Of a stretch of 64,000 bases of DNA, positions 5,840-50,016 are shown piece after piece (the stretch's first letter is position 1; each line of letters starts with the position of its first letter). The notes under the pieces were generated by a model, which saw only the letters and a program-made list of their open reading frames with translations, ran no database searches and was not told the DNA's origin. A program made the translations under genes and the position numbers. The stretch is taken from the NCBI GenBank assembly GCA_963769425.1, contig CAVYLP010000006.1, positions 640,001 through 704,000 of the forward strand. The letters run 5' to 3'. The DNA comes from Candidatus Bathyarchaeota archaeon (GTDB taxonomy: Archaea; Thermoproteota; Bathyarchaeia; TCS64).

Positions 5840-7019
5840 TCAGTTTCGGGTAATTCTTATCAGGGCGATGAGAGCCGTGCCGATTAGCATTAGGGTGCTC
5901 AAGATGAACCAGCCGATGTCGTAGCTAGTCGTGGCGTCCTTCACGACGCCGAGGAGCAGGGGAAGCACCAAGGGCTCCGAGACTCGCGAATGTGTTGTGA
6001 ACCCCCGAAAGGCTACCAGCAGTCTCCGTACCGAAGAGGCGAGGAATAATCGTGAACGCTGGGCTGCGGGTGAAGCTGCTCAACCACCCAAGTATGAACG
6101 TGGCCACGAGGATGAGGCCACCGCTAGGGAGAACCGTGAAGGCGTATACGTTCACGGCGAGAAGGAGGAAGCTCCCGCCGAGGACCCTCTTCTCGCCGAC
6201 GACGTCCGTTAACACACCACCCGCTGGGTTCGACACCATCCCAGCCAAGTTGAACAGACTCATCGCGGTGCCCACGAGCAGGACGTCGAAGCCGAACTCC
6301 TCCTTTAGCATCAATGGCAGCCAGGCTAGGAAGGTGTAGTAGCTGCCGAGGCGGATGAACTGGGCCACGGCGAGCACCCAGAAACTCCTCGTCCTCAGAG
6401 CCGTGAGGACGGCCTGCCGAGGCACTCCACTCGACCTTGCCCCGTCCTTCAGGCATAGGTAGATCAACGCGGCGGAAGCGATTCCTGCAACTCCCTGTAT
6501 GATGATTGATGCCCGCCAACCGTAGACGAGGGCGAGCAAAGGAGAGACCCAGGTAACGATGATCAAGCCTATGCTTCCACCCACATTCAACAAACCGAGG
6601 GCCGTCCCCCTCTCCCTCGACTCGTACCATCCGGCGATCAGCCTAACCGAGGGGACGAAGACCCCCGCCCCCAGCAGCCCGGCGAGGAAACGGGCAAGGG
6701 CGAGGCTCGTGAAGTCGCCGCCGAACCCGAACAGAACGGTCGCCGCGGAGACGCCCGCGATGCTGGCGGCCATAATCCTCCTGCTACCGAAGCGATCAGC
6801 CAGGAGTCCCCAGGGTATCTGACCGATCGTGTAGCCGACGAAGTAGGCCGACATCAGGGCACCGCTCTCCGTGTAACTTAGGCCCAAATCCCCCTTGATC
6901 GACGTGAGGACGTAGCTGTAGGCGGAGTTCATGATGCCCAGCACCGTGAGGGCGAGGAAACCGCCGAGCAGCACCAGGGGGTGCCTGAGCAGGCCCCTCA
7001 GCCTATCCAGAGCGGACAA
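5840..7019 (-). CDS. MFS transporter (frameshift near 5960)
   Basis: GLLADRFGSRR motif A and many TM segments. The last helices (LLGVVKDATTSYDIGWFILSTLMLIG...) continue in another frame to a stop at 5840. Confidence 0.85.
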
Positions 7020-38201: not shown

Positions 38202-41200
38202 TTACTGTGCAGCCTTTCTCTCCGCCCCGCCCCGCATGAAGTCGGTTAGGCTGAACTGCTTCGACAGCTCCTCTGGGACAGCCTCTTCGACGAAGATCTG
38301 GCTGAGTTCGAGCTGGACGAGTTCGAGGCGGTCCACGTAGTATTCGTCCAAGCCGTACTTCTTCACCATGTCGAGGGCGGGTTTCAGGTACTTCTCGATG
38401 CCCCCCCTGTGGACCGTCATCTGTATGGGGCCTCCGCAGCGCTGGCACTTCCCCGCAAGCGGTGGGCGTCTGTATTTCCTGTTGCACTTTGTGCAGCGGA
38501 AGGTCTGGCTCGTGAAGGCGCGGAGGTTTCCGACTATGTCCTTCATGAAGTGGCTGTTCAGGATCTTCAGCGCGACCTGCTTCGCGTCTACCGCGCGGAG
38601 TTTCTGGGCGAGCTCAAGCTGGCTGTCGAGCTTGTCTACCATCGTGGTGAGTGTGTTGTATGCGCCGTGGAAGCTGCCCATGTTTATGTCGCTGCACTCC
38701 TCCGTGTAGCTGAAGCCCTGGAACTGCCCCTCGGTGCCCAATCTGGCCCCGATAGTGTCCACGAGGGCACCGTATTGGCCGCTCCCCGCCCCCTCGGCGC
38801 ACAGCTTGTAGAACTCTGGCGGATAGCTCTCGTTCACGTCAACGTTATGTGCCTCCTTGTCGACCTCGCTGGGGTTGAGGAGGGGGATGACGAAGAGAGG
38901 CGCATCCATCTGGCCGCCGCTCTGCTGTGGGAGGTATGTCTTGCTGAAGTTGAGGAGTGGGTCGAGGGCGAGTAGCACCGCATCCTCGTCGCCGTCGCAG
39001 TTCCTGCGCTTCGCTGCGTGCCAGAGCGGGTGGGCGTACTGGTTTCTGACCCGGGTGAAGCCAACGAGCCTCCCCGAGATCGCCGCGGAGGTATGCGGTG
39101 CGAGCCCCAGCAATAGACATCCTACGAGGTCGCCTCGGCCCTTAGCGTTGTAGAAAGGCTCCATACCGTAGAAGTCGCGGAGCTGATCGTCTAGGAACTT
39201 CGATACCTTGAGGAGGTAGTCGCCGCAGTCCTCAGGGAGGATGACATCCTGCACCTTGAGTTCGAGCATCTGTCCCGAGTCTACGAGGGGTTCCCCGTGG
39301 GTGTCCTTGGTATAACCCAGACTCTTCAGCTTCTCGATGGAGACGCCGACCTCGTCTGGCCTGAAGTGGGTGAGGGGGATGTCGGTTAGGTCGAACCTGA
39401 GGGTGCCGTCCTTGAAGACGCTGAGGTCGTACCGGGCCCTGAGGATGCCCTTGGCGATGTGCTCCGGGGTCCTGGTCTGGTTCATCAGCCTCTTCACGCA
39501 CTTGATGCGTGCCGGGAGCTGGCCGCCGATCATCTTGCGGGCGCTCTCGAGTTCATCCTTGAGGTCTACCTCGACTGAGGCGTATGATACTATCTCGGAG
39601 TGGCACTGCGGGCAGCGCTCCCCCTCGAACCTGAGGCCGCAGCGGCTGCACCTGCGTATCTCCTTCGTCTCGCCGCCGCAGTTCACGCAGACGGCTGCGG
39701 GCCCGATCTCGCCGCAGTCGAGGCACTGGCGCTGGCTGAGCTCGACCCTGATGGTCTTCCCCTTCTCCGCCTTGAGTATATCGCGCTGTGGCCCCCCCGC
39801 CTCGCCGACGGGGTAGAGGCTGTGGACGTACGGGGCCATCCTGCGCTCCTTCGCCTTCTCCGGGCGGCCCATGCGGGCCCCGACGAAGGCCCCCGCCTTC
39901 TCCCTGACGGGGAAGCCTGCGAGGTAGTTCACGACCTCCAGCGGCTTCTCTCCCTTGATCTCGGTGTACCGCTGGTCGAGGCCGAGGGTTTTGGCTAGTA
40001 CGCGGGCGTCCTCACCGAGGTCTAGGCGGCCACCCCTGACCTTGTGGGGGAGTAGTAGATTCTCGAGAGCTACCTTCAACTCGGGTATGTTTGGGTACTC
40101 GGTGGAGTCGGGGCTGTACTCGGTGGCAAGGATGTTCCTGAGGTTTATGACCTCGTCGCGGGTGAGGCTTGACCAGTGGTAGTTCCATCGTGGGTGGATG
40201 GGTACGTCGATTGCGGTTAGAGCGAGAGCCTCGTCAACCGTCGGTCTGTGGAGGGGGCTCGCCTTCAGGTACTCGATCCTCTCGGGGAGGAGCCCCGTGA
40301 GGTTGGCCGACGCGTCGTCCCCGATGCGACGGAGGGCCGCCCTGAGGTCCTGCACGTACTGGTTCTCATCGTACCCAGTGGGGAGGAGGGCCTTGTTGTT
40401 CTGTATGAAGTCCCCCGCGTTGCTGAGGTAGTCGCCGAGGAAGATTATCCTCTCGACGCTTGGGAGGAGGCGGTCAGCCTCGGACTCGGTCTCGACACGC
40501 TGGACGGAGCCGTCCCTTAGCCTTACCACCGGTGGCTCTATCGAGTCGACGGGGCATGTGGCAGCGGATTTACCAGGCAGCTCGGTGCGCATCTGGACAC
40601 CGGTTACGAGGAACTTGTTGAGTATGATCATGGCGGCGGGATGGACGCCGCTTGCGGCGAGGCCCGTGTTCCTCGCTCGCCCGTAGCGAAGGCGGAACCC
40701 GCCGACGGCTCCGGGAAAGCTGAAGACGGGGCGCCCAACGATTATCTCTTCCATGAAAGCGGCGGTGGGCTCCTTCGCCTCCCCCTCTCCCTTCTTCTTC
40801 CTACCCATCTTGAGGAGCCACTCCCAGCCGGTGACCCCAAGCTTGTCGCAGGCGCCGTGAAGCTTCCGGGCGCGGCCAACTACCCCGTCCACGACGACGA
40901 TTAGTGCTCCTCCGCGGAGCCTGTTAGTCTCTATCCCGGCGACGTCTCGGTAGTTACTCACCTCGAACTGGTCTGTTGCGACACCTGTAGCCTCGACGGG
41001 TATCTGGCGTATGGCCGCCTCGAGATCCTCGTCGGTGACGTGGTACTGAAAGCGGCGGACGGTGCGCTCGTAGAGTCGGACCTCTTCGACGAAGCGCTGG
41101 ACCTGGTTCTCGCTTGGCTGATATTTCTCTAGGCCGAGCTTCTTCCTGACATGATCAGCAACAACGAGTGTCATTGCCTGGGCGGTGCCGCCCGCGGGGC

Positions 41201-41639
41201 GGATGGGGCCAGCGAAGTAGAGGCTGAGGTACTGGGTGCGATCCGGGTTGACTTTGATTACTATTTTAGGCAGGCCCTCGATTGGGGCTACGGTGACGCC
41301 CTCAGTCATGATGGCGAGGGCTGTGCGGATCGCCTGGTCGGCCGCTTGCTGTTTCTCGAAGGCTCCGAATCGGCCGAGGGTGATCTCCTCTGCTATCTTG
41401 AAGGCCATTTCTCTGCGGTCCATGCCCTCGAGTTCCCTCATGCGGGCGGTGAGGCCGGGGGGGCCAAGCATCTTCTCAACGCGCTCCGCGATGTCGTGTG
41501 TGATCTGCGCCTCGACCTCCCTGCTCGCGTCGAAACCCTTCGCCCGGGCGGCGCCGGCGACCTCGTAGAGCTTTGCCAGTTTCGCCTCTAGCTCGTCGAA
41601 GTATGCCCTGTTTTCCGGCGTCATGCGGAGCTGGCTCAA
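38202..41639 (-). CDS. polC: DNA polymerase D large subunit DP2
   Basis: 1145 aa. TEGVTVAPIEG, FAGPIRPAGGT, GGFRLRYGR, ARMGRPEKAKER, catalytic KRRNCDGDED, C-terminal Zn finger. No intein. Confidence 0.98.
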   Translation of the reverse strand: MSQLRMTPENRAYFDELEAKLAKLYEVAGAARAKGFDASREVEAQITHDIAERVEKMLGPPGLTARMRELEGMDRREMAFKIAEEITLGRFGAFEKQQAADQAIRTALAIMTEGVTVAPIEGLPKIVIKVNPDRTQYLSLYFAGPIRPAGGTAQAMTLVVADHVRKKLGLEKYQPSENQVQRFVEEVRLYERTVRRFQYHVTDEDLEAAIRQIPVEATGVATDQFEVSNYRDVAGIETNRLRGGALIVVVDGVVGRARKLHGACDKLGVTGWEWLLKMGRKKKGEGEAKEPTAAFMEEIIVGRPVFSFPGAVGGFRLRYGRARNTGLAASGVHPAAMIILNKFLVTGVQMRTELPGKSAATCPVDSIEPPVVRLRDGSVQRVETESEADRLLPSVERIIFLGDYLSNAGDFIQNNKALLPTGYDENQYVQDLRAALRRIGDDASANLTGLLPERIEYLKASPLHRPTVDEALALTAIDVPIHPRWNYHWSSLTRDEVINLRNILATEYSPDSTEYPNIPELKVALENLLLPHKVRGGRLDLGEDARVLAKTLGLDQRYTEIKGEKPLEVVNYLAGFPVREKAGAFVGARMGRPEKAKERRMAPYVHSLYPVGEAGGPQRDILKAEKGKTIRVELSQRQCLDCGEIGPAAVCVNCGGETKEIRRCSRCGLRFEGERCPQCHSEIVSYASVEVDLKDELESARKMIGGQLPARIKCVKRLMNQTRTPEHIAKGILRARYDLSVFKDGTLRFDLTDIPLTHFRPDEVGVSIEKLKSLGYTKDTHGEPLVDSGQMLELKVQDVILPEDCGDYLLKVSKFLDDQLRDFYGMEPFYNAKGRGDLVGCLLLGLAPHTSAAISGRLVGFTRVRNQYAHPLWHAAKRRNCDGDEDAVLLALDPLLNFSKTYLPQQSGGQMDAPLFVIPLLNPSEVDKEAHNVDVNESYPPEFYKLCAEGAGSGQYGALVDTIGARLGTEGQFQGFSYTEECSDINMGSFHGAYNTLTTMVDKLDSQLELAQKLRAVDAKQVALKILNSHFMKDIVGNLRAFTSQTFRCTKCNRKYRRPPLAGKCQRCGGPIQMTVHRGGIEKYLKPALDMVKKYGLDEYYVDRLELVQLELSQIFVEEAVPEELSKQFSLTDFMRGGAERKAAQ

Positions 41640-41669: not shown

Positions 41670-42422
41670 TTAGGCTTGGGCCCGGAGTGCGGAGGTTATC
41701 TCGCGTATGCGCTCCGTGACCTTCATCTCCTCCTCGACGAGGGTTCCGGTGACGATTATCTGGGCGCCCGCCATCTTCGCGGCGACTGCTGCCCTCGCGT
41801 CCCTGATCCCACCGCCGACGATTAGGGTGCCCTTGCAGTACTTGCGTACCGCGCCGATCATCTGTGGGTACACGGGCTGGGGCGCGCCGGAGCCCGCCTC
41901 AAGGTAGATGTAACGCATGCCGAGTAGTTCGGCAGCGGACGCGTAGGCGACGGCCAGTTCGGGGCGGTCGTATGGGACGACGCGTGCCTGTCCGACGTAG
42001 CCCGCTGCTCCGCCGTAGCCGACGATAATATAGCCCATTGGCATCGTCTCTAGCCCGAGCTTCTTCACCATAGGGGCTCCGATGGCCTGGCTGTCTATGA
42101 GGTAGTAGGTGTTGGAGCTGTTGAGTAGGCTCATGAACCAGATGGCGTCGGCAGCGCCGGTAATGCTGGCGATGTTGTTGGGGAAGATGATGACTGGGAG
42201 CTTGACGGCTGCCTTGATCCTCTTGACGGTGTCCTCCATTTCGACTCCCGAGGCCACGGTGCTCCCGCCCACCATTATGGCGGCGGTTCCGCCTGCCTCC
42301 GCGTCCTTGGCGATGGCGGCGCAGTTATAACCCGACTTCTTCTCGGGGTCGAGGAGGGTCATATGTATGCAGCCCTCCGCCTTGATGCGGTCCTGGATCA
42401 GCTGCTCTACGCAGTTAGGCAA
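41670..42422 (-). CDS. pcrB: Geranylgeranylglyceryl phosphate synthase
   Basis: HMTLLDPEK, IMVGGST, MSLLNS, YLEAGSGA, VGGGIR, IVTGT. Confidence 0.93.
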   Translation of the reverse strand: MPNCVEQLIQDRIKAEGCIHMTLLDPEKKSGYNCAAIAKDAEAGGTAAIMVGGSTVASGVEMEDTVKRIKAAVKLPVIIFPNNIASITGAADAIWFMSLLNSSNTYYLIDSQAIGAPMVKKLGLETMPMGYIIVGYGGAAGYVGQARVVPYDRPELAVAYASAAELLGMRYIYLEAGSGAPQPVYPQMIGAVRKYCKGTLIVGGGIRDARAAVAAKMAGAQIIVTGTLVEEEMKVTERIREITSALRAQA

Positions 42423-42666
42423 CCTTCTGCGTCGCCCCCTCCTCGTAGTACTTGTCGACGAACGTGCTGTATGCGTCGACGGGGGCCGTGTTGGGCTCTA
42501 TGGTTATGCGTCCATGTAGGCCGCAGGCGCTGCAGCGTATGCCGGCGAGGTTGTTCTTGGGGTCGATTGTGACTTTTATGGAGTTCTTGGCGCAGTTGGG
42601 GCAGAGGAACAGCTCGGGCAGAGTCTTCCTTATGATTTTTTCTTCCTTCTTCCTTCTTCTTCCCAT
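42415..42666 (-). CDS. elf1: Transcription elongation factor Elf1-like
   Basis: MGRRRKK...LP..F.CPNC...CSACG...PVDAYSTFVD. Confidence 0.9.
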   Translation of the reverse strand: MGRRRKKEEKIIRKTLPELFLCPNCAKNSIKVTIDPKNNLAGIRCSACGLHGRITIEPNTAPVDAYSTFVDKYYEEGATQKVA

Positions 42667-42699: not shown

Positions 42700-43494
42700 T
42701 CAGCTTAGTCTTAAGATTGCCGGAAGTGTGCGTTTGTGCTCATTGGCGGCTATCCTCGCTATGATCCCCTCGACGCTCCGTTGATCGACGCACGTCTCCG
42801 AGGCTATACGAGCCGGTGCCCAGCCCTTGAGGTGTGTGTGGACTATGAGGTCTATGCTATCGTAGGGAAGCCCGAGGTCCTTCTCCGTATCCTGCCCAAG
42901 CCAGAGGCGCGCCGATGCGGGCTTCTCCGTTATGCTCGTGGGGACGCCGAGGTACCTGCCTAGGGCGCGGATCTGGCACTTGTAGAGATCCGCGAAGGGC
43001 ATGATATCCACTCCCCCGTCCCCGTACTTCGTGTAATAGCCAAGGTAGAGCTCGGTTTTGTTCGACGTGCCCATCACCATGGCTCTCCGGGTGTTGGCGA
43101 AGTAGTAGGTTAGCAACATCCTGAGGCGGGCTTTCATGTTGCCGTAAGCGATCCTGTCAGATGGGTCGAATCCGGGGATGTTTTCACGCATCACGTGTAA
43201 CATCGGCGTGATTTCGACGTGCTCACACGTGACTCCGACTGTCTCACAGAGGCGTATCACATCGTCGACGTCTGCGTTTGGTGTGATATCACGCTCAGGG
43301 AGGGTCAGCGCGGTGACATTTTCAGGCCCAAAAGCCTTCACTGAGGCGGCTAGTGCTGTAGCCGAGTCTATTCCGCCACTTACAGCAACCACGATGCCTC
43401 TTAATCCCGCCGACTTGATCGTGTTTTGAATAAATTCTGAGATTTTTTCGCTGGTTTTTTGCGGGTCGATATTTAGCTGCTCGATGCCGATCAT
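42700..43494 (-). CDS. nadE: NH3-dependent NAD+ synthetase
   Basis: VSGGIDSA, GNMKARLRM, GTSNKTE, YYTKYGDGG, NEHKR. Confidence 0.96.
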   Translation of the reverse strand: MIGIEQLNIDPQKTSEKISEFIQNTIKSAGLRGIVVAVSGGIDSATALAASVKAFGPENVTALTLPERDITPNADVDDVIRLCETVGVTCEHVEITPMLHVMRENIPGFDPSDRIAYGNMKARLRMLLTYYFANTRRAMVMGTSNKTELYLGYYTKYGDGGVDIMPFADLYKCQIRALGRYLGVPTSITEKPASARLWLGQDTEKDLGLPYDSIDLIVHTHLKGWAPARIASETCVDQRSVEGIIARIAANEHKRTLPAILRLS

Positions 43495-45216
43495 TGGGTT
43501 TCATGTGACGTGGAAGGATTAAATCGTTTCTTTATGTGATTTTTATGATAATTTTAGCTATTTATGCCTTGTTTTTTGCTGATTTGGGAGAATATCAGAT
43601 GTTTGAGCACATGTTACACTAGGAATGGCCTGTTTAGAGGCTGAATCAAAAGATTGATATGGCATACAGTTCTGTATACAATGGTATCATTATGTGATAC
43701 CAATAGATATGGGGCGTGAATGAGTGGAGTCCACTAAAGAGACCCAAAATATGATTCAGAAAGCATTTCAGGACCCAATAACAGACCTGTTACTAAATAA
43801 CAGCAATTTAACGAGGACTCAGTTTGAAACACTCATGATTGACCTATTAATTGACGTAATGTCCGATGAAAAGGTTCCGTTTAAAGATAAGACCTTATTT
43901 AGAACCCATAAGGTTAGTCGAGGTTCATTTAGCCGCACATTAGGGCAAGCTAGGCATAGAGTGATATCTTCAATCTTCACTATAGTCCTCCTTAGCTATG
44001 TAGGAGTCTATGACGCTAAGCCCTTTGAGGAATATCAAAATCTCTCAGAAAAATTGAGAGAATACCTCTCCGAGATCGAGAAGTCTGGTACCAAGTCACC
44101 AGCCCTACTTAGACGAATAGAGGAGGAATTGACTATGGGAATAGAGTCTCTGTCACACCCGACGAAGCTGAAGGTGGTGTGATATCACACTAAATCACAG
44201 ATGTTAGGGCAATACAGGATTGGCCTAAGGAGGATCCCCCGTCGCCTAACGGCGTTTTGGTGTTCGTCAACACATCTAATCCTGTTTTTTCGACGTTTTT
44301 GATGATTCTCTGCGAAATGTTTCTGTTGACTAGCACACCACCCGAGATCGCTATTATATTGATGTCCTCTGCTCTGGCTACATCTATAGCCATCTCTGAA
44401 ATACCATCGGCTAAATATTTCTGTACAAAAGCCGCAATATCTTCTTTTTTAAGGGTATTTTTGTTATCTATTAGATATTTAAGCATATTTGCAGTTTTTA
44501 ACTCATAAATACGGTTATTATTCTCTATTTGAGGCTCATATTTTACCGTCTCTGGGCTACCTTTTTCCGCTAAGGATTCTAGTCTCATAGCTGGCTCACC
44601 TTCGTAAGTTCTGTAATAAGTTAAACCTAGTAAAGAGGCGACCGAGTCAAGTAATCTGCCCGAGCTAGAGGTTTTTAGGACGTTTTTAACCCTCGACTGC
44701 TTGATAATCAAGTCGCGTTCATCTAAACCGTTAGGTAACGCTTCTTCTATGTGATTTTCTGTGATATCACGCAACTCATTATCGCTTAGTACGGTGGAAA
44801 GGGCTGCGATAAGCATTCTATAGGGGTACATCGCACATAGGTCTCCTCCCGGCATGGGTAGATACTCAAGCTGACCGGTCCGTTTATAGTCTGAATAGGT
44901 CGAAATTAGCACTTCTCCACCCCAGATCGCTCCATCTGGCCCATATCCCGCACCATCTAGGGCTATCCCGACGACGTTCTCATCCGGCTTTACGCCATTC
45001 TCAGCGCACACGGAGACTATATGGGCGTGATGATGCTGTGACCTTGTGATTTCCACGCCCATCTCTTGTGATATCACTCCCGCCAACTGTGATGTCATGT
45101 AACCGGGATGCTGGTCACAGGCTATCACATCGGGGTTACGTGTGATTCTGAGGATGTCACGCAAGGCGTGGATGGCGCTTTTCTCGTATTCCAAGGTCTC
45201 TAGGTTGGTTATGTCA
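43283..45216. repeat. Dispersed cluster of GTGATATCAC palindromes
   Basis: Perfect copies at 43283, 44179 (within the 14-bp GTGTGATATCACAC at 44177-44190), 44761 and 45068. Near copies at 43961, 45089 and ~45208, plus many TGTGAT/ATCACA half-sites. Confidence 0.85.
43724..44182 (+). CDS. Uncharacterised helical protein, possible HTH-type DNA-binding protein
   Basis: 152 aa. LLLNNSNLTRTQFETL followed by KVSRGSFSRTLGQARHRV resembles a sigma-R4/LuxR-like HTH arrangement. Confidence 0.75.
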   Translation: MESTKETQNMIQKAFQDPITDLLLNNSNLTRTQFETLMIDLLIDVMSDEKVPFKDKTLFRTHKVSRGSFSRTLGQARHRVISSIFTIVLLSYVGVYDAKPFEEYQNLSEKLREYLSEIEKSGTKSPALLRRIEEELTMGIESLSHPTKLKVV

Positions 45217-46514
45217 CCAAGGTATTGGGTCTGGTAGCATTTCCCGTCTAGCGTGACCGAGGCTGCGTTACTTTGCTCCGTACCAACTGCGAAAGATATG
45301 CCCTTTTTAATGGGTATTTCAACAGGATCGGGCACATAACCACGCGATCTCCTCACAAAGGCCACACGCCCATCGTTGACGCGCATGAGGGAGTCGTCGC
45401 ACCTGTTCACTATCTCCCTGTTGTGGACGAGGAAATAGTCGGCAACGCCCCTAAGGTCACTGAGGGCGTCCTTGTTCGTTATAGCCATGGGCAACCCAGA
45501 CCTGTTACCGCTCGTCATGACGAGGGCCAGACCGTCAAGCCTCTTGAAGAGCATCACCTGTATCCCAGTGTAGGGGAGCATCACGCCGACACGACTCAAC
45601 CCCGGCGCGACGAGATCGGAGATCTCTCCGCTCCGCCTCTTTACGAGGACTATCGGCTTCTGCCAGGAGACCAGCGCCCTCAACTCGTAGATGTCGGGGG
45701 AGGCGAAGCTCTTCACGGCCGCGAGGTCAGGAGCCATGAGGGCGAAGGGCTGGTACGGTCTGTTCTTACGGGCCCTCAACTTCTCGACTGGGCCATCCTC
45801 GGTGGCGAAGGCAGCGAGGTGGAATCCACCGATCCCCTTGACAGCAACAATGCTCCCTTCCCTCAGCAGCTTCGCCACCTCCGCGAAGACGTCGCTGACT
45901 TTTATCTCCACCCCAGAGGCGTCCAGCAGGCTCATCTTGGGGCCGCAGATGCTGCAGGTTATTCCCTGCGCGTCGAATCGCCTGTCGAGTGGGTTCCTGT
46001 AGTCGCTCTGACAGTGCCTGCACATGGGGAAGGCGTCCATATGTGTCCTCTCCCTGTCGTAGGGTAGGGACCTGACCCCGGTGAACCGTGGGCCGCACCA
46101 GGCGCAGGCCGTGAAGGGGTACTCGAACCACCGTCCCCCCTTGTCCTCCATGTCCCTGAGGCAATCGGGGCAGATCCCGATGTCGGGCGGGAAGATGCCC
46201 GAAGCGGCGTCCCTGCCGCTCCTGCTACGGTCAATGACGAACTCTGTGAACCTACCCCTGTAGGGTCTGTAAGAAGAGTGTATCCCAGTGATCTCGGATA
46301 CGGGCGGCGCCTCCGCTTGTATCGACTTGATGAATGCCTCCACGTTCTCGGTTGGGCCCTCGACGACGGCTTCGACCCCCGCGTCCCCGAGGTTTATGAC
46401 GTATCCCCTGAGCCCGTGGCGGACCGCCAGACGGTAGATGAAAGGGCGGAAGCCCACGCCCTGCACCCTGCCGGTCACGTGGACCTCGGCCTCGACGCTG
46501 CCCGGGGAGCCCAA
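44190..46514 (-). CDS. hypF: [NiFe]-hydrogenase maturation carbamoyltransferase
   Basis: GRVQGVGFRPF, two CxxC-x18-CxxC fingers, KGIGGFHL, DQHPGY, QHHHAH, DGAGYG, GDGGSSLGQ. Confidence 0.97.
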   Translation of the reverse strand: MGSPGSVEAEVHVTGRVQGVGFRPFIYRLAVRHGLRGYVINLGDAGVEAVVEGPTENVEAFIKSIQAEAPPVSEITGIHSSYRPYRGRFTEFVIDRSRSGRDAASGIFPPDIGICPDCLRDMEDKGGRWFEYPFTACAWCGPRFTGVRSLPYDRERTHMDAFPMCRHCQSDYRNPLDRRFDAQGITCSICGPKMSLLDASGVEIKVSDVFAEVAKLLREGSIVAVKGIGGFHLAAFATEDGPVEKLRARKNRPYQPFALMAPDLAAVKSFASPDIYELRALVSWQKPIVLVKRRSGEISDLVAPGLSRVGVMLPYTGIQVMLFKRLDGLALVMTSGNRSGLPMAITNKDALSDLRGVADYFLVHNREIVNRCDDSLMRVNDGRVAFVRRSRGYVPDPVEIPIKKGISFAVGTEQSNAASVTLDGKCYQTQYLGDITNLETLEYEKSAIHALRDILRITRNPDVIACDQHPGYMTSQLAGVISQEMGVEITRSQHHHAHIVSVCAENGVKPDENVVGIALDGAGYGPDGAIWGGEVLISTYSDYKRTGQLEYLPMPGGDLCAMYPYRMLIAALSTVLSDNELRDITENHIEEALPNGLDERDLIIKQSRVKNVLKTSSSGRLLDSVASLLGLTYYRTYEGEPAMRLESLAEKGSPETVKYEPQIENNNRIYELKTANMLKYLIDNKNTLKKEDIAAFVQKYLADGISEMAIDVARAEDINIIAISGGVLVNRNISQRIIKNVEKTGLDVLTNTKTPLGDGGSSLGQSCIALTSVI

Positions 46515-46644
46515 ACCGATTCACAGCTATGAGGCGACTCGATTATTAAACGATGAGTCCCAGACTCCCTCACGCAGTGAGAGCAACCAAAGGATAAAAA
46601 AGCCAGACCGGTGACATTCACATGAGAGCATAGTCGGCGATACC

Positions 46645-47313
46645 TTGGATCTCACGATAACCGCGGCCGCCCTATTACTAGTCACCGTAGTCGCCTCCAT
46701 CATCTTTTACCGCAGGATAAAGGAGGCGACATCCGAGTACAACGGCGCTAAGGAGTTCGTCCACAACTTAACCTTCGGCTTCACCCGCCAGGTCAACCAC
46801 CTTCAGCAGGACGTAGCTAAGGCCGAGAATGAGGCGACGACGGCCAAGATCGTTGCGTCTGAAGCCCTGAGGAACAGTGGCGAGGCGAAGGAGGCGACCC
46901 TCAAGGGCCTCGAGGCCGTGAAGACCATCCAGAGCCGTGTAGACTCCACCGAGTCTGAGGTCGATTCCATTAGGAGGGAGGTCCAGAAGCTCGCCGCCGC
47001 CCCGAAGCAGCGCGTGGTCGTACGCCAGGACATAGCAGCCCCAATCCCCGTACAGCAGGGCAATATACTAGCGCAGCTGACGGAGACCGAGCTGAGCGCT
47101 CTCAAGAAGATTGCTGAGCTCGGCGAGGGGGCTGTCCCTGAGATCAAGGAGCACCTCGGCACCACCCGTGAGCACACAGCGCGTACACTCAAGAAGCTCT
47201 ACGAGTCCGGCTTCGTTGACCGCAGCACCAACGCCATGCCCTACCGCTACAGCGTCCGTAAGGAGATACGCGACCTCATCCAGCAACAGCCGGAGCAGAA
47301 GCCGACGCTGTAG
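46645..47313 (+). CDS. Membrane-anchored coiled-coil protein with C-terminal winged-helix (MarR-like) domain
   Basis: N-terminal TM (ITAAALLLVTVVASIIFY), heptad-rich middle, LTETELSALKKI...TREHTARTLKKLYESGFVDR...PYRYSV. Confidence 0.85.
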   Translation: MDLTITAAALLLVTVVASIIFYRRIKEATSEYNGAKEFVHNLTFGFTRQVNHLQQDVAKAENEATTAKIVASEALRNSGEAKEATLKGLEAVKTIQSRVDSTESEVDSIRREVQKLAAAPKQRVVVRQDIAAPIPVQQGNILAQLTETELSALKKIAELGEGAVPEIKEHLGTTREHTARTLKKLYESGFVDRSTNAMPYRYSVRKEIRDLIQQQPEQKPTL

Positions 47314-47600
47314 AACCCCCTGCCCTAAAAGAGGGGAGGGGGTCAAAAACCAAGCCCAAAATCAGCCTTTTTCAGCCGGGTGAACCCGAAAAACACGCTG
47401 ATTGTTTCTGATTATGTACCAAAACGTGCATTTAAGTCATACATTCAGCGAATGATTTACGCTGATCCTCCGTCGCCAAAGAAAACCAAAAAAAGGTCCC
47501 AAACGCGAAAAACCGAGAAATTAGGAGGAAACGCGACGGCGGCGAAGGTACCCCCTTCCCCAACGTTCACGCACGTGGAGACACACCCACACAGCCGAGC
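47314..47600. other. oriC-like intergenic region (inward-facing G-strings flanking an A/T-tract-rich core)
   Basis: GGGGAGGGGGT at 47333-47343 and ACCCCCTTCCCC at 47550-47561, upstream of the DP1 operon. ORB dyads are degenerate. Confidence 0.4.
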
Positions 47601-47635
47601 AGCCTTTATACCCCCAAACCCACCACAGATACGAA

Positions 47636-47977
47636 ATGAAGACCAACAGTGTAGACAAGGCACCACGAATGAGCCCCGCAAAGGGAGTAGAGATCATAAT
47701 CCTTGGCAGTAGCGACAAAGTCATGCTCACACACATCATCGCCCAACCTGGCGCAATAGTCCCCGACCACAAGCATCCACACGACCAGATAGGCACATGC
47801 ATCAAGGGCGAAGGCGTCCTCACATCCGGGGGCAAGAAGTTCAAGACCGTCCCCGGCGCCAGCTGGTACATCCCCGGAGGAGAGAGCCACGATTGGGTCA
47901 ACACCAGCAAGGGCGAGACTATCCTCATAGAGACCTTCGCCCCCCCACGCGAGGATTACTTATCCAAGGCCAAGTAA
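47636..47977 (+). CDS. Cupin domain protein
   Basis: PDHKHPHDQI, YIPGGESH, ETFAPPREDY. Confidence 0.9.
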   Translation: MKTNSVDKAPRMSPAKGVEIIILGSSDKVMLTHIIAQPGAIVPDHKHPHDQIGTCIKGEGVLTSGGKKFKTVPGASWYIPGGESHDWVNTSKGETILIETFAPPREDYLSKAK

Positions 47978-47996: not shown

Positions 47997-49475
47997 TTGA
48001 GCGAGCAGACCCCCCAGTTCCTGCAGCGCATAATCGAGGCAGGCTACCAGCTAAGCCCGGACGCCTACGCCTACCTCATGGGGCTACCCGCCGAGACAGC
48101 AGACACCCTATCACAAAAGGCCGTTTTGAAGGCAGACTCTTCCTCCCCTCCTCTCTTCGTGCTCGATAAGGGCTACCTGCTAGTACTCGTCGAGACTCCC
48201 CGACCGGAGCCCCTCCCTCAGAAGAACCGTCCAATACCCGCTAGGGACAAGGGCACGTCTCTCAAGGTTCTCGATGAGGAACCCGCACAACCAGCCAGCG
48301 ACGCCGAGGGCTTCCTCCAGTACTTCCAGAGCCGATACGACCGCCTCGAGGCTATACTCAAGCGCCGCGTCGACGTGAAGGACGCCATACCGATCGAGCA
48401 GGCGCTCAAGCTCCCCCTCAAGACAAAGCTCAAGACAACCGGCATCGTCTCCGAGAAACGAACCAGAGGCAACAAGTTATTCATCGAGCTCGAGGACCGC
48501 CGCTCCACAATCAGCGTCATGGCCACAGACGAGGACGTCATGCACCGCGGCTTGGAGCTGCAGGAGGATCAGGTCATCGCCGTCGACGCAGTCAAATACA
48601 CAGACGACCTGCTGATCGCAAACGACTGGATCTGGCCCGACGTCCCAAATAACACCCCTAGACGAAGCCCTGACCCACTATATGCGGCCCTGCTCGCGGA
48701 TGTCCACGTCGGCTCCAAATACTACAGGGGCGACCTCTTCGACAAGTTCATCGACTGGATGAACCTCGAACTCGGTCCGCCACAGAGCAGGGACGCAGCT
48801 GCGCGCGTCAAGTACGTCGTCATAGCTGGTGACCTCGTCGACGGCGTCGGTATATACCCCGAGCAGCTGGACGAACTCACCATATCCGACATACGAGAGC
48901 AGTACAGGGCGGCCGCGGAGCTCCTCAAGCAACTACCCGACTACGTGGAGATCGTCGTGACCCCTGGCAACCACGACGCGACCCGCCACAGCATGCCTCA
49001 GCCCCCCATACCCAAGGAGTACGCTAAGGAGCTGCACGAGGACCCGCGCGTCAAGATGCTATCCAGTCCCTGCAGGCTTAACCTAAACGGAGTCGAGATC
49101 CTCGTCGAGCATGGCAAGGGGATGGACGACATACTCAGCAGCACGCCCGGCTACGAGTTCCAACACCCACTGAAGGCGATGGAGCTCCTCTTTAGATGCC
49201 GCCACCTTGCCCCCCGCTACGGACAGAGCACTCCGATCGCCCCCGAGCGCACTGACCGGCTCGTCATTGGTAGCGTTCCCGACGTCATGCTCATGGGGCA
49301 CATCCACATCAACGAGACCAAGCGCTACAAGGGCGTCACACTGGTCTCCGCGGGTTCGTGGCAAGATCAGACCCCCTTTCAGAAGCGTATGCAGATAGAA
49401 CCCACGACGGGTGTTGCCACAATATTCGACTTGCAGACCCACCAGACTCTTGACCTCGACTTCAAGCGCTTCTAG
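47997..49475 (+). CDS. polB: DNA polymerase D small subunit DP1 (3'-5' exonuclease)
   Basis: YFQSRY, OB fold, ADVHVGS, AGDLVDGVGIYP, PGNHDA, HG, RHLAPRYG, GHIH, WQDQTPFQ. Confidence 0.97.
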   Translation: MSEQTPQFLQRIIEAGYQLSPDAYAYLMGLPAETADTLSQKAVLKADSSSPPLFVLDKGYLLVLVETPRPEPLPQKNRPIPARDKGTSLKVLDEEPAQPASDAEGFLQYFQSRYDRLEAILKRRVDVKDAIPIEQALKLPLKTKLKTTGIVSEKRTRGNKLFIELEDRRSTISVMATDEDVMHRGLELQEDQVIAVDAVKYTDDLLIANDWIWPDVPNNTPRRSPDPLYAALLADVHVGSKYYRGDLFDKFIDWMNLELGPPQSRDAAARVKYVVIAGDLVDGVGIYPEQLDELTISDIREQYRAAAELLKQLPDYVEIVVTPGNHDATRHSMPQPPIPKEYAKELHEDPRVKMLSSPCRLNLNGVEILVEHGKGMDDILSSTPGYEFQHPLKAMELLFRCRHLAPRYGQSTPIAPERTDRLVIGSVPDVMLMGHIHINETKRYKGVTLVSAGSWQDQTPFQKRMQIEPTTGVATIFDLQTHQTLDLDFKRF

Positions 49476-50016
49476 TCAGACCACGCGCTACGATCCCAGC
49501 GACCCTCACCGGCTCCGGCGCCCTCGTCAACGACGCCGAGGACCTCAGAACCTCCTCACACCAATCCCTCGACTCACCAACCACCTCGAAGAACACAGGA
49601 GGATAACCCTCTCTCGTCACGAGGCTGTAAACATCCCCCAGCTGCGCTATCGGGGCCCACCTCTCACCCCAATCGGTGAAGTGGGCCTTCAAAGCTGCGA
49701 GTACCGAGGCACTATCTGGCTTCTCCCCTGAATAAACGATCACTGGGACGCCAAGTTCGTCATGCACTCTGGTTCCGTCGATTATATTGAACCCAGCGAA
49801 GGAGACGCCTCCGAGTATCACAGCGTCGCAGCGGATGTTTACAAGCATACCGAGCAACACGTCGGTAGCGTCCCGCCCGTCGACGGTGACCTTGCCTAAT
49901 CTAATCGCCTCTACCCTGTCTCCTATCATTAAGACTGCACAGAGTAAGGTCAACTGCCCCGACTGGAATGCTCTGAAGCCGCCGTCCTCCACCCCCACGA
50001 GGCTGAGGGAACTCAA
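49462..50016 (-). CDS. DUF99 family (endonuclease V-like fold) protein
   Basis: VGVEDGGF, VTVDGRDAT, GVSFAGFNIID, PEPVRVA. Confidence 0.88.
   Translation of the reverse strand: MSSLSLVGVEDGGFRAFQSGQLTLLCAVLMIGDRVEAIRLGKVTVDGRDATDVLLGMLVNIRCDAVILGGVSFAGFNIIDGTRVHDELGVPVIVYSGEKPDSASVLAALKAHFTDWGERWAPIAQLGDVYSLVTREGYPPVFFEVVGESRDWCEEVLRSSASLTRAPEPVRVAGIVARGLTRSA

What the first reader, a model, noticed from the sequence alone, without database searches (positions are those of the whole stretch)
43180..47600. Candidate centromere-like / origin-tethering system: GTGATATCAC palindrome cluster + HTH-like gene + membrane-anchored wHTH next to an oriC-like site
Seen: four perfect 10-bp palindromes within 1.8 kb (43283, 44179, 44761, 45068), with flanks approaching GYGTGATATCACRC, plus near-matches and many half-sites. 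I noticed no other perfect copy in the window, and a given 10-mer is expected about 0.06 times per 64 kb at uniform composition. Three copies lie inside nadE and hypF coding sequence and one spans convergent stop codons, so they are not promoter operators. Established: bacterial parS sites are palindromes clustered near oriC, often intragenic, and archaeal segregation is poorly understood beyond SegAB/AspA. Inference: the 43724-44182 protein and/or the TM-coiled-coil-wHTH protein (46645-47313) bind this array to organise or anchor the origin region. No ParA/ParB gene is visible in this window.
Basis: partly seen in the sequence, partly recalled or inferred. Interest (0 to 1): 0.85.

Follow-up and report, generated by a model that had tools for sequence, protein, structure and literature searches.

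The report
Conserved palindrome array beside ancestral archaeal origin
A cluster of identical short DNA palindromes, kept unchanged even inside protein-coding genes, always travels with a membrane-anchored DNA-binding protein next to the replication origin in a large group of archaea, which makes it a testable candidate for a chromosome-to-membrane anchor.

Summary
GTGATATCAC occurs 4 times in 1.8 kb and only 5 times in the 2.55-Mb genome.

The array is conserved. All 19 genus- and family-level orthologous loci carry 1-4 copies at matching positions. In 61 relatives, 131 of 137 strand-hits of TGTGATATCAC lie at this locus. Synonymous sites inside the motif are among the most conserved in hypF and nadE.

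The motif is YGTGAYRTCACR, with extra TGTGAT half-sites. It tracks the TM-coiled-coil-wHTH gene (46645-47313) more closely than ORF152 (43724-44182), on two discriminating lineages.

In other Bathyarchaeia families, and in a second class of the phylum, the same module sits 0.02-4 kb from a canonical oriC: an inverted ORB pair plus Orc1/Cdc6, between the PolD genes.

G000's own order lacks the local Cdc6 and ORBs but keeps the array.

Best reading (about 0.4): this is the cognate site array of a membrane-anchored wHTH dimer that marks or tethers the origin-flanking region. Binding, tethering and present-day origin activity in G000 are not shown. ORF152's supposed HTH is unsupported.

The parts
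43256..43293 (.). Site cluster A, inside nadE coding sequence. It holds half-site ATCACA (43256-43261) and the palindrome TGTGATATCACG (43282-43293; 10-mer core 43283-43292).
   Evidence: The 10-mer is identical in 9 of 19 aligned loci and the half-site in 14 of 19, against a background hexamer mean of 0.154. Its third-codon-position window ranks 9 of 261 in nadE.
44177..44199 (.). Site cluster B. It holds the 14-bp perfect palindrome GTGTGATATCACAC (44177-44190), which overlaps the ORF152 stop codon, followed by half-site ATCACA (44194-44199) inside the 3' end of hypF.
   Evidence: The 10-mer is identical in 19 of 19 aligned loci and the half-site in 18 of 19. The same composite, a palindrome plus a half-site 3-4 bp further on, is seen in G050. 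A palindrome at the 3' end of ORF152 recurs in several families.
44750..44771 (.). Site cluster C, inside hypF coding sequence. It holds TGTGAT (44750-44755) and the palindrome TGTGATATCACG (44760-44771).
   Evidence: The 10-mer is identical in 14 of 19 loci and the half-site in 14 of 18. Codons R-D-I-T use the majority codon in 1.0, 0.86, 1.0 and 0.86 of sequences, against a background of 0.547. Its third-position window ranks 2 of 491. A site at the same distance from the hypF stop, about 585 nt, is present in class-level G048.
45045..45146 (.). Site cluster D, inside hypF coding sequence. It holds TGTGAT 45045, the palindrome TGTGATATCACT 45067-45078, TGTGATGTCA 45088-45097, ATCACA 45124-45129 and TGTGAT 45141-45146.
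   Evidence: Identity across aligned loci: 10-mer 14 of 19; 45067 hexamer 17 of 19; 45088 hexamer 16 of 19; 45124 hexamer 19 of 19; 45141 hexamer 15 of 19. Motif codons use the majority codon in 1.0, 1.0 and 0.95 of sequences, and the window ranks 16 of 491.
46645..47313 (+). Gene for a 222-aa protein with an N-terminal transmembrane helix (residues 3-21), a long coiled-coil helix, a disordered linker and a C-terminal winged helix-turn-helix. This is the best candidate binder of the array.
   Evidence: Pfam MarR 32.4 bits and TrmB 27.3 bits, both over their cut-offs. The AF2 model has a helix at 2-118, a low-confidence stretch at 123-138 and a wHTH at 147-213. Foldseek matches MarR, ArsR, AspA and MecI wHTH domains at E about 5e-4. 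The best 19-residue Kyte-Doolittle window scores 2.55 and is followed by RRIK. The protein was found in 46 of 61 relatives, and its presence tracks the motif.
43724..44182 (+). ORF152, a conserved all-alpha protein of no known family. It sits in the middle of the array and its stop codon lies within the best-conserved palindrome.
   Evidence: Found in 45 of 61 relatives. 396 homologues and 376 cluster representatives. AF2 pLDDT is 85 with 7 helices. No Pfam, NCBIfam, PDB-sequence or Foldseek match.
43662..43681 (.). A separate conserved inverted repeat, GCATACAGTTCTGTATAC, 43-62 nt upstream of the ORF152 start.
   Evidence: Conserved as TATACA-N4-5-TGTAT upstream of ORF152 across the class, including the two genomes that lack the TGTGAT motif and the wHTH.
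42700..43494 (-). nadE (NAD synthase). It hosts cluster A in its 5' part.
   Evidence: Pfam NAD_synthase at 5.6e-68. GC3 is 0.52-0.60 at the 5' end against 0.72-0.82 in the 3' part.
44190..46514 (-). hypF (carbamoyltransferase for hydrogenase maturation). It hosts clusters C and D, and part of B, in its 3' third.
   Evidence: All HypF domains are present. GC3 falls from 0.81-0.87 at the 5' end to 0.35 at the 3' end. The gene is present at this locus in some lineages and absent in others.
43400..44800 (.). An AT-rich valley (GC 0.34-0.46 against about 0.6 in the flanks) that crosses gene boundaries and is centred on the array.
   Evidence: A comparable GC3 decline in hypF toward the array is seen in 4 of 5 lineages examined.
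46611..46621 (.). GTGACATTCAC, a near-site with a 3-bp spacer, 24-34 nt upstream of the wHTH start codon. It is the only site-like element in the hypF-wHTH divergent promoter region.
   Evidence: Other hypF-containing relatives have no TGTGAT-type site in this promoter region.
38202..41639 (-). PolD large subunit DP2. It forms the left border of the conserved block DP2-PcrB-Elf1-nadE-ORF152-(hypF)-wHTH-(cupin)-DP1.
   Evidence: Pfam; synteny.
47997..49475 (+). PolD small subunit DP1, the right border of the conserved block. It is followed by an endonuclease-dU gene on the minus strand (about 49462-50016).
   Evidence: Pfam; tblastn; synteny.

Best explanation
The four palindromes, together with at least six conserved TGTGAT half-sites, form one cis-acting array with the motif YGTGAYRTCACR. 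The array is held by selection at the DNA level.

Its most likely reader is the neighbouring 222-aa protein. This protein has an N-terminal transmembrane helix, a cytoplasmic coiled coil about 95 residues long, a flexible linker and a MarR/TrmB-type winged helix. A coiled-coil dimer would place two winged helices on the two halves of each palindrome. Ten or more sites within 1.9 kb would then gather many membrane-anchored dimers, pinning this stretch of chromosome to the cytoplasmic membrane.

The module is old. In other Bathyarchaeia families, and in a second class of the phylum, it lies directly beside the canonical origin (an inverted ORB pair plus Orc1/Cdc6) between the two PolD genes. The likely role is therefore to position, anchor or organise the origin-flanking region without a ParA-type motor. 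Where the array lies upstream of the wHTH gene it probably also autoregulates it.

Shown: the existence, rarity and conservation of the array; synonymous-site constraint; the protein architecture; co-occurrence; and adjacency to oriC in relatives.

Inferred: which protein binds, dimerisation, membrane tethering, and the cellular role.
For: 1. Non-random and locus-confined. There are 4 copies in 1.8 kb and 5 in the genome, and this is the only rare 10-mer clustered in this way. In 61 relatives there are 137 strand-hits of the 11-mer, 131 of them at this locus, against 14 hits for the reversed control pattern. The 6 off-locus hits are single and lie in unrelated ORFs or sequence.

2. DNA-level selection.
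- All 19 orthologous loci keep 1-4 copies while their locus GC ranges from 0.29 to 0.56.
- The palindromes rank among the best-conserved 10-mers of the locus alignment.
- Motif codons are fixed or nearly so, against a background of 0.547.
- Third-position windows rank 2 and 16 of 491, and 9 of 261.
- Variants keep the dyad: GTGACGTCAC and GTGATGTCAC.

3. The motif tracks the wHTH.
- 40 of 46 wHTH-positive genomes have the exact 11-mer. Three of the six exceptions have the gene at a contig end, and three carry variant sites.
- 3 of 15 wHTH-negative genomes have it: two are single background hits and one is a truncated locus.
- G046 and G053 (98-100% complete) have ORF152 but no wHTH and no motif.
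- G047 has the wHTH and sites but no ORF152 hit.
- The HTH_3-CBS gene found near the array in some lineages does not track the motif.

4. TrmB-family winged helices are known to read GTGATA half-sites. The Thermococcales glycolytic motif (TGM) is TATCAC-N5-GTGATA (PMC4158304, passages read).

5. The membrane anchor is conserved. 15 of 16 orthologues and 4 of 4 second-class homologues have an N-terminal 19-residue window of hydropathy at least 1.94, mostly followed within a few residues by basic residues.

6. Origin adjacency.
- Inverted ORB pairs and the locus-linked Cdc6 lie 0.02-4 kb from the wHTH gene in G049, G059, G054, G048, G050 and G051.
- In family f20 the wHTH gene is 2.1-2.2 kb from Cdc6 in 6 of 6 genomes tested. 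There, 8-11 TGTGAT hexamers lie within about 0.7 kb upstream of and across the start of the wHTH gene, where 0.3-0.7 per kb are expected.

7. Not ordinary operators in G000. The sites lie 1.4-3.4 kb from the wHTH promoter, inside coding sequence or at convergent gene ends.

8. G050 has amplified the site-bearing unit five-fold over about 5 kb of ORF-poor DNA.
Against: - No binding data exist, and the protein that reads the sites is inferred from co-occurrence resting on only two discriminating lineages (the genus of G046 and G053, and G047).
- A palindrome at the 3' end of ORF152 is kept even where ORF152 and the wHTH gene are divergent (L104). This would also fit a link to ORF152.
- In hypF-less Bathyarchaeia and in family f20 the half-site arrays lie directly upstream of the wHTH gene. 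Plain autoregulation would explain those cases.
- G000's order has lost the locus-linked Cdc6, the ORBs and orf138. In G000 itself the array may no longer be near an active origin.
- The strand-bias signal in G000 is weak. The cumulative ORF-strand minimum is at about 702 kb against the locus at 683-687 kb, with 95+/104- ORFs on the left and 121+/81- on the right. It may also be a relic.
- G021 shows no clear ORF-strand minimum at the locus.
Confidence: 0.4

Rival explanations
1. This is an ordinary transcription-factor system. The membrane-anchored wHTH is a signal-released or locally acting regulator, and the palindromes and half-sites are operators controlling its own gene and neighbours (ORF152, the cupin-DP1 unit, nadE, hypF). 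Nearness to the origin is only inherited gene order.
For: - In hypF-less relatives and in family f20 the half-site arrays sit immediately upstream of the wHTH start.
- The DNA-binding domain belongs to the MarR/TrmB class of regulators.
- Databases name the protein a MarR family regulator.
Against: - In G000 and four other hypF-containing genomes there is no TGTGAT array in the wHTH promoter.
- The conserved sites lie inside coding sequence or at convergent 3' ends.
- Sites extend over 5-7 kb at roughly 1-kb spacing in G050.
- The protein has no sensor or ligand domain.
Confidence: 0.25
2. ORF152, alone or together with the wHTH protein, or some factor encoded elsewhere, is the protein that reads the palindromes. 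The wHTH gene is only a conserved neighbour.
For: - The best-conserved palindrome always abuts the ORF152 stop codon. It is identical in 19 of 19 aligned loci and is also present in f4, f9, f10, f19 and f38.
- ORF152 lies at the centre of the G000 array.
- ORF152 and the motif co-occur in 39 of 45 ORF152-positive genomes.
Against: - G046 and G053 keep ORF152 next to oriC with no motif at all.
- G047 has sites without an ORF152 hit.
- ORF152 has no detectable DNA-binding fold.
- ORF152 has its own, different, conserved upstream inverted repeat.
Confidence: 0.15
3. The array is part of the replication machinery itself: binding sites for a replication regulator or alternative initiator. In G000's order it may have replaced the lost ORB/Orc1-1 pair as the replicator.
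For: - The array flanks canonical oriC in relatives.
- The AT-rich valley and the long AT-rich spacers (GC 0.22-0.38) resemble unwinding regions.
- No canonical ORB cluster was found anywhere in G000.
- No AT-rich ORB pair was seen next to the remaining Cdc6 gene.
- The cumulative ORF-strand minimum on contig C6 lies within about 20 kb of the locus.
Against: - Where ORBs exist, the array is a separate element 0.7-4 kb away, not inside the origin.
- The genus with ORBs and Cdc6 but no wHTH has no array, so the array is not needed for that origin.
- The skew signals are weak and could be historical.
Confidence: 0.1
4. The cluster is an accident of coding constraint, shared ancestry or a recent transfer of a low-GC segment, with no function of its own.
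For: - Two sites encode the same peptide, R-D-I-T.
- The segment has lower GC than its flanks.
- Related genomes are not independent samples.
Against: - Synonymous positions are specifically conserved against the background of the same genes.
- The motif persists in non-coding spacers where hypF is absent.
- In G047 it lies at a position in nadE that, by a hand comparison of the coordinates, appears to be a different codon (not checked by alignment).
- It persists in a second class of the phylum.
- It is almost absent elsewhere in 61 genomes.
Confidence: 0.02

Closest known systems
RicO/ricS of Staphylococcus aureus (bioRxiv 10.64898/2026.03.06.710092; abstract and section 8 read)
   Same: A sequence-specific DNA-binding domain, a coiled coil and a membrane-binding element in one protein. 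There is a small set of cognate sites near the origin, and no dedicated motor. The proposed role is anchoring origins at the membrane.
   Different: RicO has an N-terminal DNA-binding domain and a C-terminal amphipathic helix. Here the order is reversed, and the anchor is a true N-terminal transmembrane helix. The nine ricS sites are spread over about 700 kb, whereas here ten or more sites lie within 2 kb. No homology was tested, because the RicO sequence was not at hand. The organisms belong to different domains of life. The function is shown for RicO and only inferred here.
Archaeal centromere-binding proteins AspA (pNOB8) and SegB (SegAB)
   Same: Small dimeric DNA-binding proteins reading palindromic sites placed next to their own gene. 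The AspA winged helix is among the Foldseek matches of the wHTH domain (5k5q, E 7.7e-4).
   Different: No ParA/SegA-type ATPase or ParB partner gene is at the locus. AspA and SegB have no membrane anchor or long coiled coil. The similarity to AspA is that of a generic winged helix, since MarR, ArsR and MecI score the same. The properties of SegB are recalled, not checked in a call.
Bacterial ParB/parS, RacA/ram and Noc/NBS systems (recalled from general knowledge)
   Same: Palindromic sites clustered in origin-proximal DNA, often inside genes. They are bound by a dedicated protein that organises or tethers the chromosome.
   Different: No ParB_N domain is present in the genome. The DNA-binding fold is different. 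The array is far more compact. Membrane attachment is by an integral helix rather than through a partner protein or an amphipathic helix.
TrmB-family regulators and the Thermococcales glycolytic motif TATCAC-N5-GTGATA (PMC4158304, passages read)
   Same: A TrmB-type winged helix (Pfam TrmB 27.3 bits) and the same GTGATA half-site.
   Different: The half-sites here face inward and overlap (GTGATATCAC) rather than facing outward with a 5-bp spacer. There is no sugar-binding effector domain. The protein is membrane-anchored. The sites are mostly not at promoters in G000.

Membership tests
ParABS partition system | A ParB protein with the ParB_N (CTPase) domain | tested here: not met
   PF02195 was not found in the G000 genome (91% complete). 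The control search detected it in 10 of 14 reference genomes.
ParABS / SegAB partition systems | A Walker-type ParA/SegA ATPase gene adjacent to the centromere-binding protein gene | tested here: not met
   The 5 CbiA-family hits in the genome lie at C6:839 kb, C6:472 kb, C1:311 kb, C4:316 kb and C4:272 kb, none in the window. The genes from 38 to 50 kb are DP2, PcrB, Elf1, nadE, ORF152, hypF, wHTH, cupin and DP1.
ParABS / centromere-like arrays in general | Clustered palindromic sites, rare elsewhere in the genome and conserved in relatives | tested here: met
MarR/TrmB winged-helix regulators | A winged helix-turn-helix domain matching the family models | tested here: met
   MarR scores 32.4 bits (cut-off 24.6) and TrmB 27.3 bits (cut-off 25.6). 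The AF2 model shows a wHTH at 147-213. Foldseek gives MarR and ArsR hits at E about 5e-4.
MarR/TrmB winged-helix regulators | The canonical architecture: a soluble protein with dimerisation helices flanking the wHTH (MarR), or a C-terminal effector domain (TrmB) | tested here: not met
   The wHTH is C-terminal. It is preceded by a transmembrane helix, a single 117-residue helix and a disordered linker, and there is no effector domain.
Canonical archaeal oriC (ORB elements plus adjacent Orc1/Cdc6) | Inverted ORB elements flanking an AT-rich stretch next to an orc1/cdc6 gene, in G000 itself | tested here: not met
   No clustered ORB-pattern match was found in the G000 genome. The only Cdc6_C hit is at C1:24396-24674, and it is the paralogue not linked to this locus.
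Canonical archaeal oriC (ORB elements plus adjacent Orc1/Cdc6) | The same features at the orthologous locus in relatives | tested here: met
   ORB pairs and Cdc6 are present at the locus in G049, G059, G054, G053, G046, G050 and G051. G048 has the locus-linked Cdc6 and two pattern matches in opposite orientation about 330 bp apart. In G115 (family f20) ORB-like elements between orf138 and cdc6 were read by eye.
RicO-like origin-membrane tether | One polypeptide holding a specific DNA-binding domain, a coiled coil and a membrane-binding element | tested here: met
   This is predicted architecture only. The domain order and the type of anchor differ from RicO.
RicO-like origin-membrane tether | Demonstrated binding to origin-proximal sites, membrane localisation and a segregation defect on loss | not testable with these tools
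   This needs EMSA or ChIP, localisation and genetics.

The most novel reading that the evidence does not exclude
The TM-coiled-coil-wHTH protein and its TGTGA(YR)TCACA array are an ancient, motor-less chromosome anchor. The system predates the split of at least two classes of Thermoproteota and was born next to oriC. It would be a physical counterpart of the membrane attachment site postulated in the replicon model.

G000's order kept the array, and sharpened it into perfect palindromes inside genes, after losing the local Orc1/Cdc6 and ORBs. This would mean the array acts as a centromere-like landmark independent of replication initiation.
Probability: 0.3. Interest if true: 0.9.

Novelty: new variant of a known kind. 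Interest (0 to 1): 0.8.

Why it matters
How most archaea position and separate their chromosomes is unknown. SegAB and AspA-type systems cover only some lineages, and no archaeal link between chromosome and membrane has been described. My searches found none.

This locus offers a concrete protein and a 12-bp site that can be tested directly by EMSA, ChIP and localisation. The pair is conserved across abundant sediment archaea and across a second class whose complete genomes keep it beside Cdc6.

The work also maps a canonical oriC architecture for several Bathyarchaeia families. It further shows that one order has apparently lost the origin-linked initiator while keeping the array.

Tried and rejected
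- Homodimer prediction for the cytoplasmic part of the wHTH protein: no verdict, score 0.21 against a mark of 0.42. It is not used as evidence either way.
- Search for sequencing runs: no RNA holder was listed, only small-share DNA holders.
- ORF152 fold and family searches gave nothing usable. These were Pfam on the protein, on 25 family members and on 10 distant members; NCBIfam; a PDB sequence profile; Foldseek against PDB; and the ESM Atlas, which gave only a 0.83 lead to Sigma70_r4.
- Restriction-site avoidance or enrichment is rejected: GATATC occurs 491 times against 501 expected.
- A longer repeat or mobile element is rejected: the copies share only about 12-17 nt.
- No Rfam family matches at the locus.
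- Other windows rich in TGTGAT hexamers (C2:193 kb and C3:24 kb) hold scattered single hexamers.
- HTH_3-CBS protein as the binder is rejected by its distribution.
- Cdc6 type B as the binder is unlikely. Family f20 has arrays with a single Cdc6 that is closer to the locus-linked type. G052 and G057 have a second Cdc6 but no array.
- GC skew as an origin marker has opposite sign in G051 and G000, because it follows the gene strand. It was therefore set aside in favour of ORF-strand bias, which is itself weak.
- A repeat search around the G000 and G021 Cdc6 genes found only a shared GGTGAGTGAAAG element in the promoter and no ORB pair.
- Earlier-findings look-ups returned nothing.
- Supplementary files of papers were not consulted.

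Full report
**Observation.** GTGATATCAC occurs at 43283, 44179, 44761 and 45068, and nowhere else in the window. None of 100 dinucleotide-preserving shuffles contained a copy. The window is C6:640001-704000 of a 2.55-Mb, six-contig genome.

Genome-wide there are five copies, against about 1.9 expected from base composition. The sub-motifs GATATC and TGATATCA occur at their expected frequencies. Among 491,041 canonical 10-mers, 128 reach four spaced copies within 2 kb, at 17 places. Only the two overlapping 10-mers of this locus are rare genome-wide, and GTGATATCAC is the only palindrome among them. The copies share about 12-17 nt, so they are not part of a longer repeat.

The hexamer half-sites TGTGAT/ATCACA are also concentrated here. 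There are 12 in one 2-kb window, against a genome mean of 0.67, and the five densest windows of the genome all overlap the locus.

**Gene context.**
- PolD DP2, 38202-41639, minus strand
- PcrB, 41670-42422, minus strand
- Elf1, 42415-42666, minus strand
- nadE, 42700-43494, minus strand
- A 152-aa ORF with no family ('ORF152'), 43724-44182, plus strand
- hypF, 44190-46514, minus strand
- A 222-aa protein with MarR/TrmB winged-helix hits, 46645-47313, plus strand
- A 113-aa ORF (47636-47977, plus strand) that I read as a cupin by eye; it was not scanned against Pfam, though tblastn finds its homologue at the same position in relatives
- PolD DP1, 47997-49475, plus strand
- An endonuclease-dU gene on the minus strand

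One site lies in nadE and two lie in hypF. One contains the ORF152 stop codon and ends one base before the hypF stop.

An AT-rich valley (43400-44800) crosses gene boundaries. In hypF, GC3 falls from 0.81-0.87 at the 5' end to 0.35 at the 3' end.

**Conservation.** ORF152 is a single-copy gene found in 45 of 61 relatives. All 19 genus- and family-level orthologous loci fetched (about 1.5 kb on each side) carry the 10-mer: 8 loci have four copies, 7 have three, 3 have two and 1 has one. The relative positions match, although locus GC ranges from 0.29 to 0.56.

A genome-wide scan of 61 genomes for TGTGATATCAC found it in 43. Of 137 strand-hits, 131 lie at this locus. The reversed control pattern gave 14 hits. 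The six off-locus hits are single and lie in unrelated sequence.

In a 20-locus alignment the palindromes are among the most conserved 10-mers, at 1.00, 0.955, 0.949 and 0.945 against a mean of 0.73. The 44179 site is identical in 19 of 19 loci, 44761 and 45068 in 14 of 19, and 43283 in 9 of 19. Six neighbouring half-sites are identical in 14-19 of 18-19 loci. Background hexamers average 0.154, with a 99th percentile of 0.79.

Codon analysis shows that the constraint acts on DNA. In hypF, codons for conserved residues use the majority codon in 0.547 of sequences on average, and 3.5% of them are fixed. The motif codons score 1.0, 1.0 and 0.95 at one site and 1.0, 0.86, 1.0 and 0.86 at the other. 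Four-codon windows of third positions rank 2 and 16 of 491 in hypF, and 9 of 261 in nadE.

A logo built from 125 sites gives YGTGAYRTCACR with uninformative flanks. Variant lineages keep the dyad, as GTGACGTCAC or GTGATGTCAC.

**Which protein?**

ORF152 gives a confident all-alpha model (pLDDT 85). It has no match in Pfam, NCBIfam, PDB sequences or Foldseek. The Atlas offers only a weak lead to Sigma70_r4, at 0.83.

The 222-aa protein is modelled as one helix spanning residues 2-118, a low-confidence linker at 123-138, and a winged helix at 147-213. The winged helix matches MarR, ArsR, AspA and MecI domains at E about 5e-4. Residues 3-21 form a hydrophobic segment (Kyte-Doolittle 2.55) followed by RRIK. 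Fifteen of 16 orthologues have an equivalent segment; the exception has a truncated start call.

Presence and absence across the 61 genomes:
- The wHTH is present in 46. Forty of these have the exact 11-mer. Three of the exceptions have the gene at a contig end, and three carry variant sites.
- Of the 15 genomes without the wHTH, three have a hit. Two are single background hits, and one is a locus cut by a contig end.
- The discriminating cases favour the wHTH. G046 and G053 (one genus, 98-100% complete) have ORF152 but no wHTH and no motif. G047 has the wHTH and sites but no ORF152 hit.
- An HTH_3-CBS gene lies between the array and the wHTH in some lineages, but its distribution does not follow the motif.

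ORF152 carries its own conserved upstream inverted repeat, TATACA-N4-5-TGTAT. It is present even in the motif-less genus.

TrmB-family winged helices are documented to read GTGATA half-sites (PMC4158304, passages read).

Against the wHTH: a palindrome stays at the ORF152 3' end even where the two genes are divergent.

**The origin connection.** G000's only Cdc6_C match is on contig C1. No clustered ORB-pattern match was found in G000.

In other families of the class, however, the same syntenic block contains a canonical origin.
- In G053 and G046 the order is ORF152, orf138, an inverted ORB pair around an AT-rich stretch of about 165-200 nt, Cdc6, endonuclease dU, and DP1.
- In G049, G059 and G054 the order is ORF152, two palindromes, the wHTH gene, an ORB pair (ACCCCTnnATTTCCACTGGAA, starting 17 bp after the wHTH stop in G049), a small ORF, and Cdc6.
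- G048, G050, G051 and G215 show the same order, with orf138 between the origin region and the wHTH gene. ORB pattern matches were found in G048, G050 and G051; in G215 only the gene order was checked.

A profile of the wHTH family finds it in 95 of 201 genomes sampled across the phylum. In family f20, which belongs to another class and has complete genomes of 1.6-1.8 Mb, the homologue lies 2.1-2.2 kb from Cdc6 in 6 of 6 genomes tested.

In the f20 locus of G115 the order is DP2, PcrB, an ORF152-like gene, the wHTH homologue, orf138, ORB-like elements, Cdc6 and DP1. The wHTH homologue there also has a transmembrane helix, a coiled coil and a wHTH. Across the four f20 loci, eight to eleven TGTGAT hexamers lie within about 0.7 kb, where 0.3-0.7 per kb are expected. 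They lie upstream of the wHTH homologue and across its start.

The module is therefore old and was born next to oriC.

**What happened in G000's order.** Class-level genomes mostly carry two Cdc6 paralogues, one at this locus and one elsewhere. G000's Cdc6 is 40-47% identical to the off-locus paralogue and 28-32% identical to the locus-linked one.

In 44 of 45 genomes of families f1-f4 the best Cdc6_C score is at most 77 bits. The locus-linked copies elsewhere score 87-106 bits. G027 is the exception, with a locus-type copy on a 3.7-kb contig. orf138 was not found in G000.

So this order appears to have lost the origin-linked initiator, the ORBs and orf138, while keeping the array, ORF152 and the wHTH.

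Whether the locus still fires is open.
- On contig C6 the cumulative ORF-strand curve has its minimum near 680-702 kb, against the locus at 683-687 kb. The polarity is that of an origin, as at the canonical oriC of G051. The bias is weak, with 95+/104- ORFs on the left and 121+/81- on the right.
- GC skew has opposite sign in the two genomes because it follows the gene strand.
- G021 gives no clear ORF-strand minimum at the locus.

**Operators or structure?** In hypF-less relatives and in f20 the half-site arrays lie just upstream of the wHTH gene, so autoregulation is likely there.

In G000 and four other hypF-containing genomes the wHTH promoter has no array; G000 has one GTGAcatTCAC. In these genomes the conserved sites sit 1.4-3.4 kb away, inside genes and at convergent ends.

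G050, a 1.2-Mb genome, has expanded a site-bearing unit of about 1 kb five-fold across ORF-poor DNA. Each copy carries the composite TGTGAYRTCACA-tta-TATCACA, which G000 also has at 44178-44199.

GC3 of hypF declines toward the array in 4 of 5 lineages.

These features fit a multivalent nucleoprotein landmark better than a simple operator. Centromere sites that also serve as operators are well known (recalled).

**Comparison with known systems.**
- This is not ParABS or SegAB. There is no ParB_N domain in the genome and no ParA-like gene in the window.
- The closest functional analogue I found is RicO/ricS of S. aureus. It has a DNA-binding domain, a coiled coil and a membrane-binding helix, with nine origin-proximal sites (preprint; abstract and one section read). 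Its domain order, anchor type and site spacing all differ.
- UBP/ucm of Sulfolobus is a different kind of origin element (abstract and passages read).
- No paper on a Bathyarchaeia origin or segregation system, and none containing the 12-mer, was found.

The mechanism remains inference, namely membrane-anchored wHTH dimers on a site array that pins or organises origin-flanking DNA. I put it at about 0.4, ahead of plain transcriptional regulation (0.25), ORF152 or another binder (0.15) and a direct role in replication (0.1).

Noticed in passing
window 43662-43681; also upstream of ORF152 orthologues in L022-L041: A second conserved inverted repeat, different from the array motif (TATACA-N4-5-TGTAT; GCATACAGTTCTGTATAC in G000), lies 20-65 nt upstream of ORF152 across the class. 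It is present even in the genus that lacks the TGTGAT motif and the wHTH. It may be the ORF152 promoter or an operator of its own.
   Followed up: partly
window 43400-44800; hypF 44190-46514: Synonymous-site GC falls steadily along hypF toward the array (GC3 from 0.81-0.87 down to 0.35), and the 5' end of nadE is also depressed. A similar decline is seen in 4 of 5 lineages with hypF at the locus. The cause, whether mutational or selective, is unexplained.
   Followed up: partly
G000 C1:24363-25535, compared with loci L022-L028, L043, L045, L046 and L105-L110: G000 and nearly all genomes of its order carry only the Cdc6 paralogue that is not linked to this locus. The locus-linked paralogue, the ORB pair and orf138 are missing. 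No AT-rich ORB pair was seen next to the remaining Cdc6, only a shared GGTGAGTGAAAG element in its promoter in G000 and G021. Where these genomes start replication is open.
   Followed up: partly
L026 593-3917 and 4413-5684 (G050:C15): About 4.5 kb around ORF152 has no ORF of 82 aa or more in a 1.2-Mb genome. The region is built of roughly 1-kb segmental duplications, including copies of the hypF 3' end, and each carries the composite palindrome plus half-site.
   Followed up: partly
L027 3533-3949; L097 4764-5150; L043 4575-4949, and others: A conserved ORF of about 125-140 aa with no family ('orf138') lies between the ORB pair and the wHTH gene, or next to ORF152, in many lineages of both classes. 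It was not found in G000.
   Followed up: partly
L103 196-807; L102 3174-3782; L043 about 5900-6500: An HTH_3 plus tandem-CBS protein gene sits between the half-site array and the wHTH gene in some lineages, with GTCACATGTGAT-type sites at its start. Its homologues elsewhere do not follow the motif's distribution.
   Followed up: yes
window 47314-47635: A 320-bp intergenic stretch after the wHTH gene has lower GC and a CCCCCT...AGGGGG inverted repeat. It has no ORB-pattern match. Four family-level relatives checked have only about 50-85 bp between the wHTH and cupin matches.
   Followed up: partly
G000 contig C6, about 700-750 kb (outside the window): There is a sharp local excursion of cumulative GC skew (4214 at 700 kb, 5488 at 725 kb, 4218 at 750 kb), with the contig-wide maximum at 728.5 kb. 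It was not examined.
   Followed up: no
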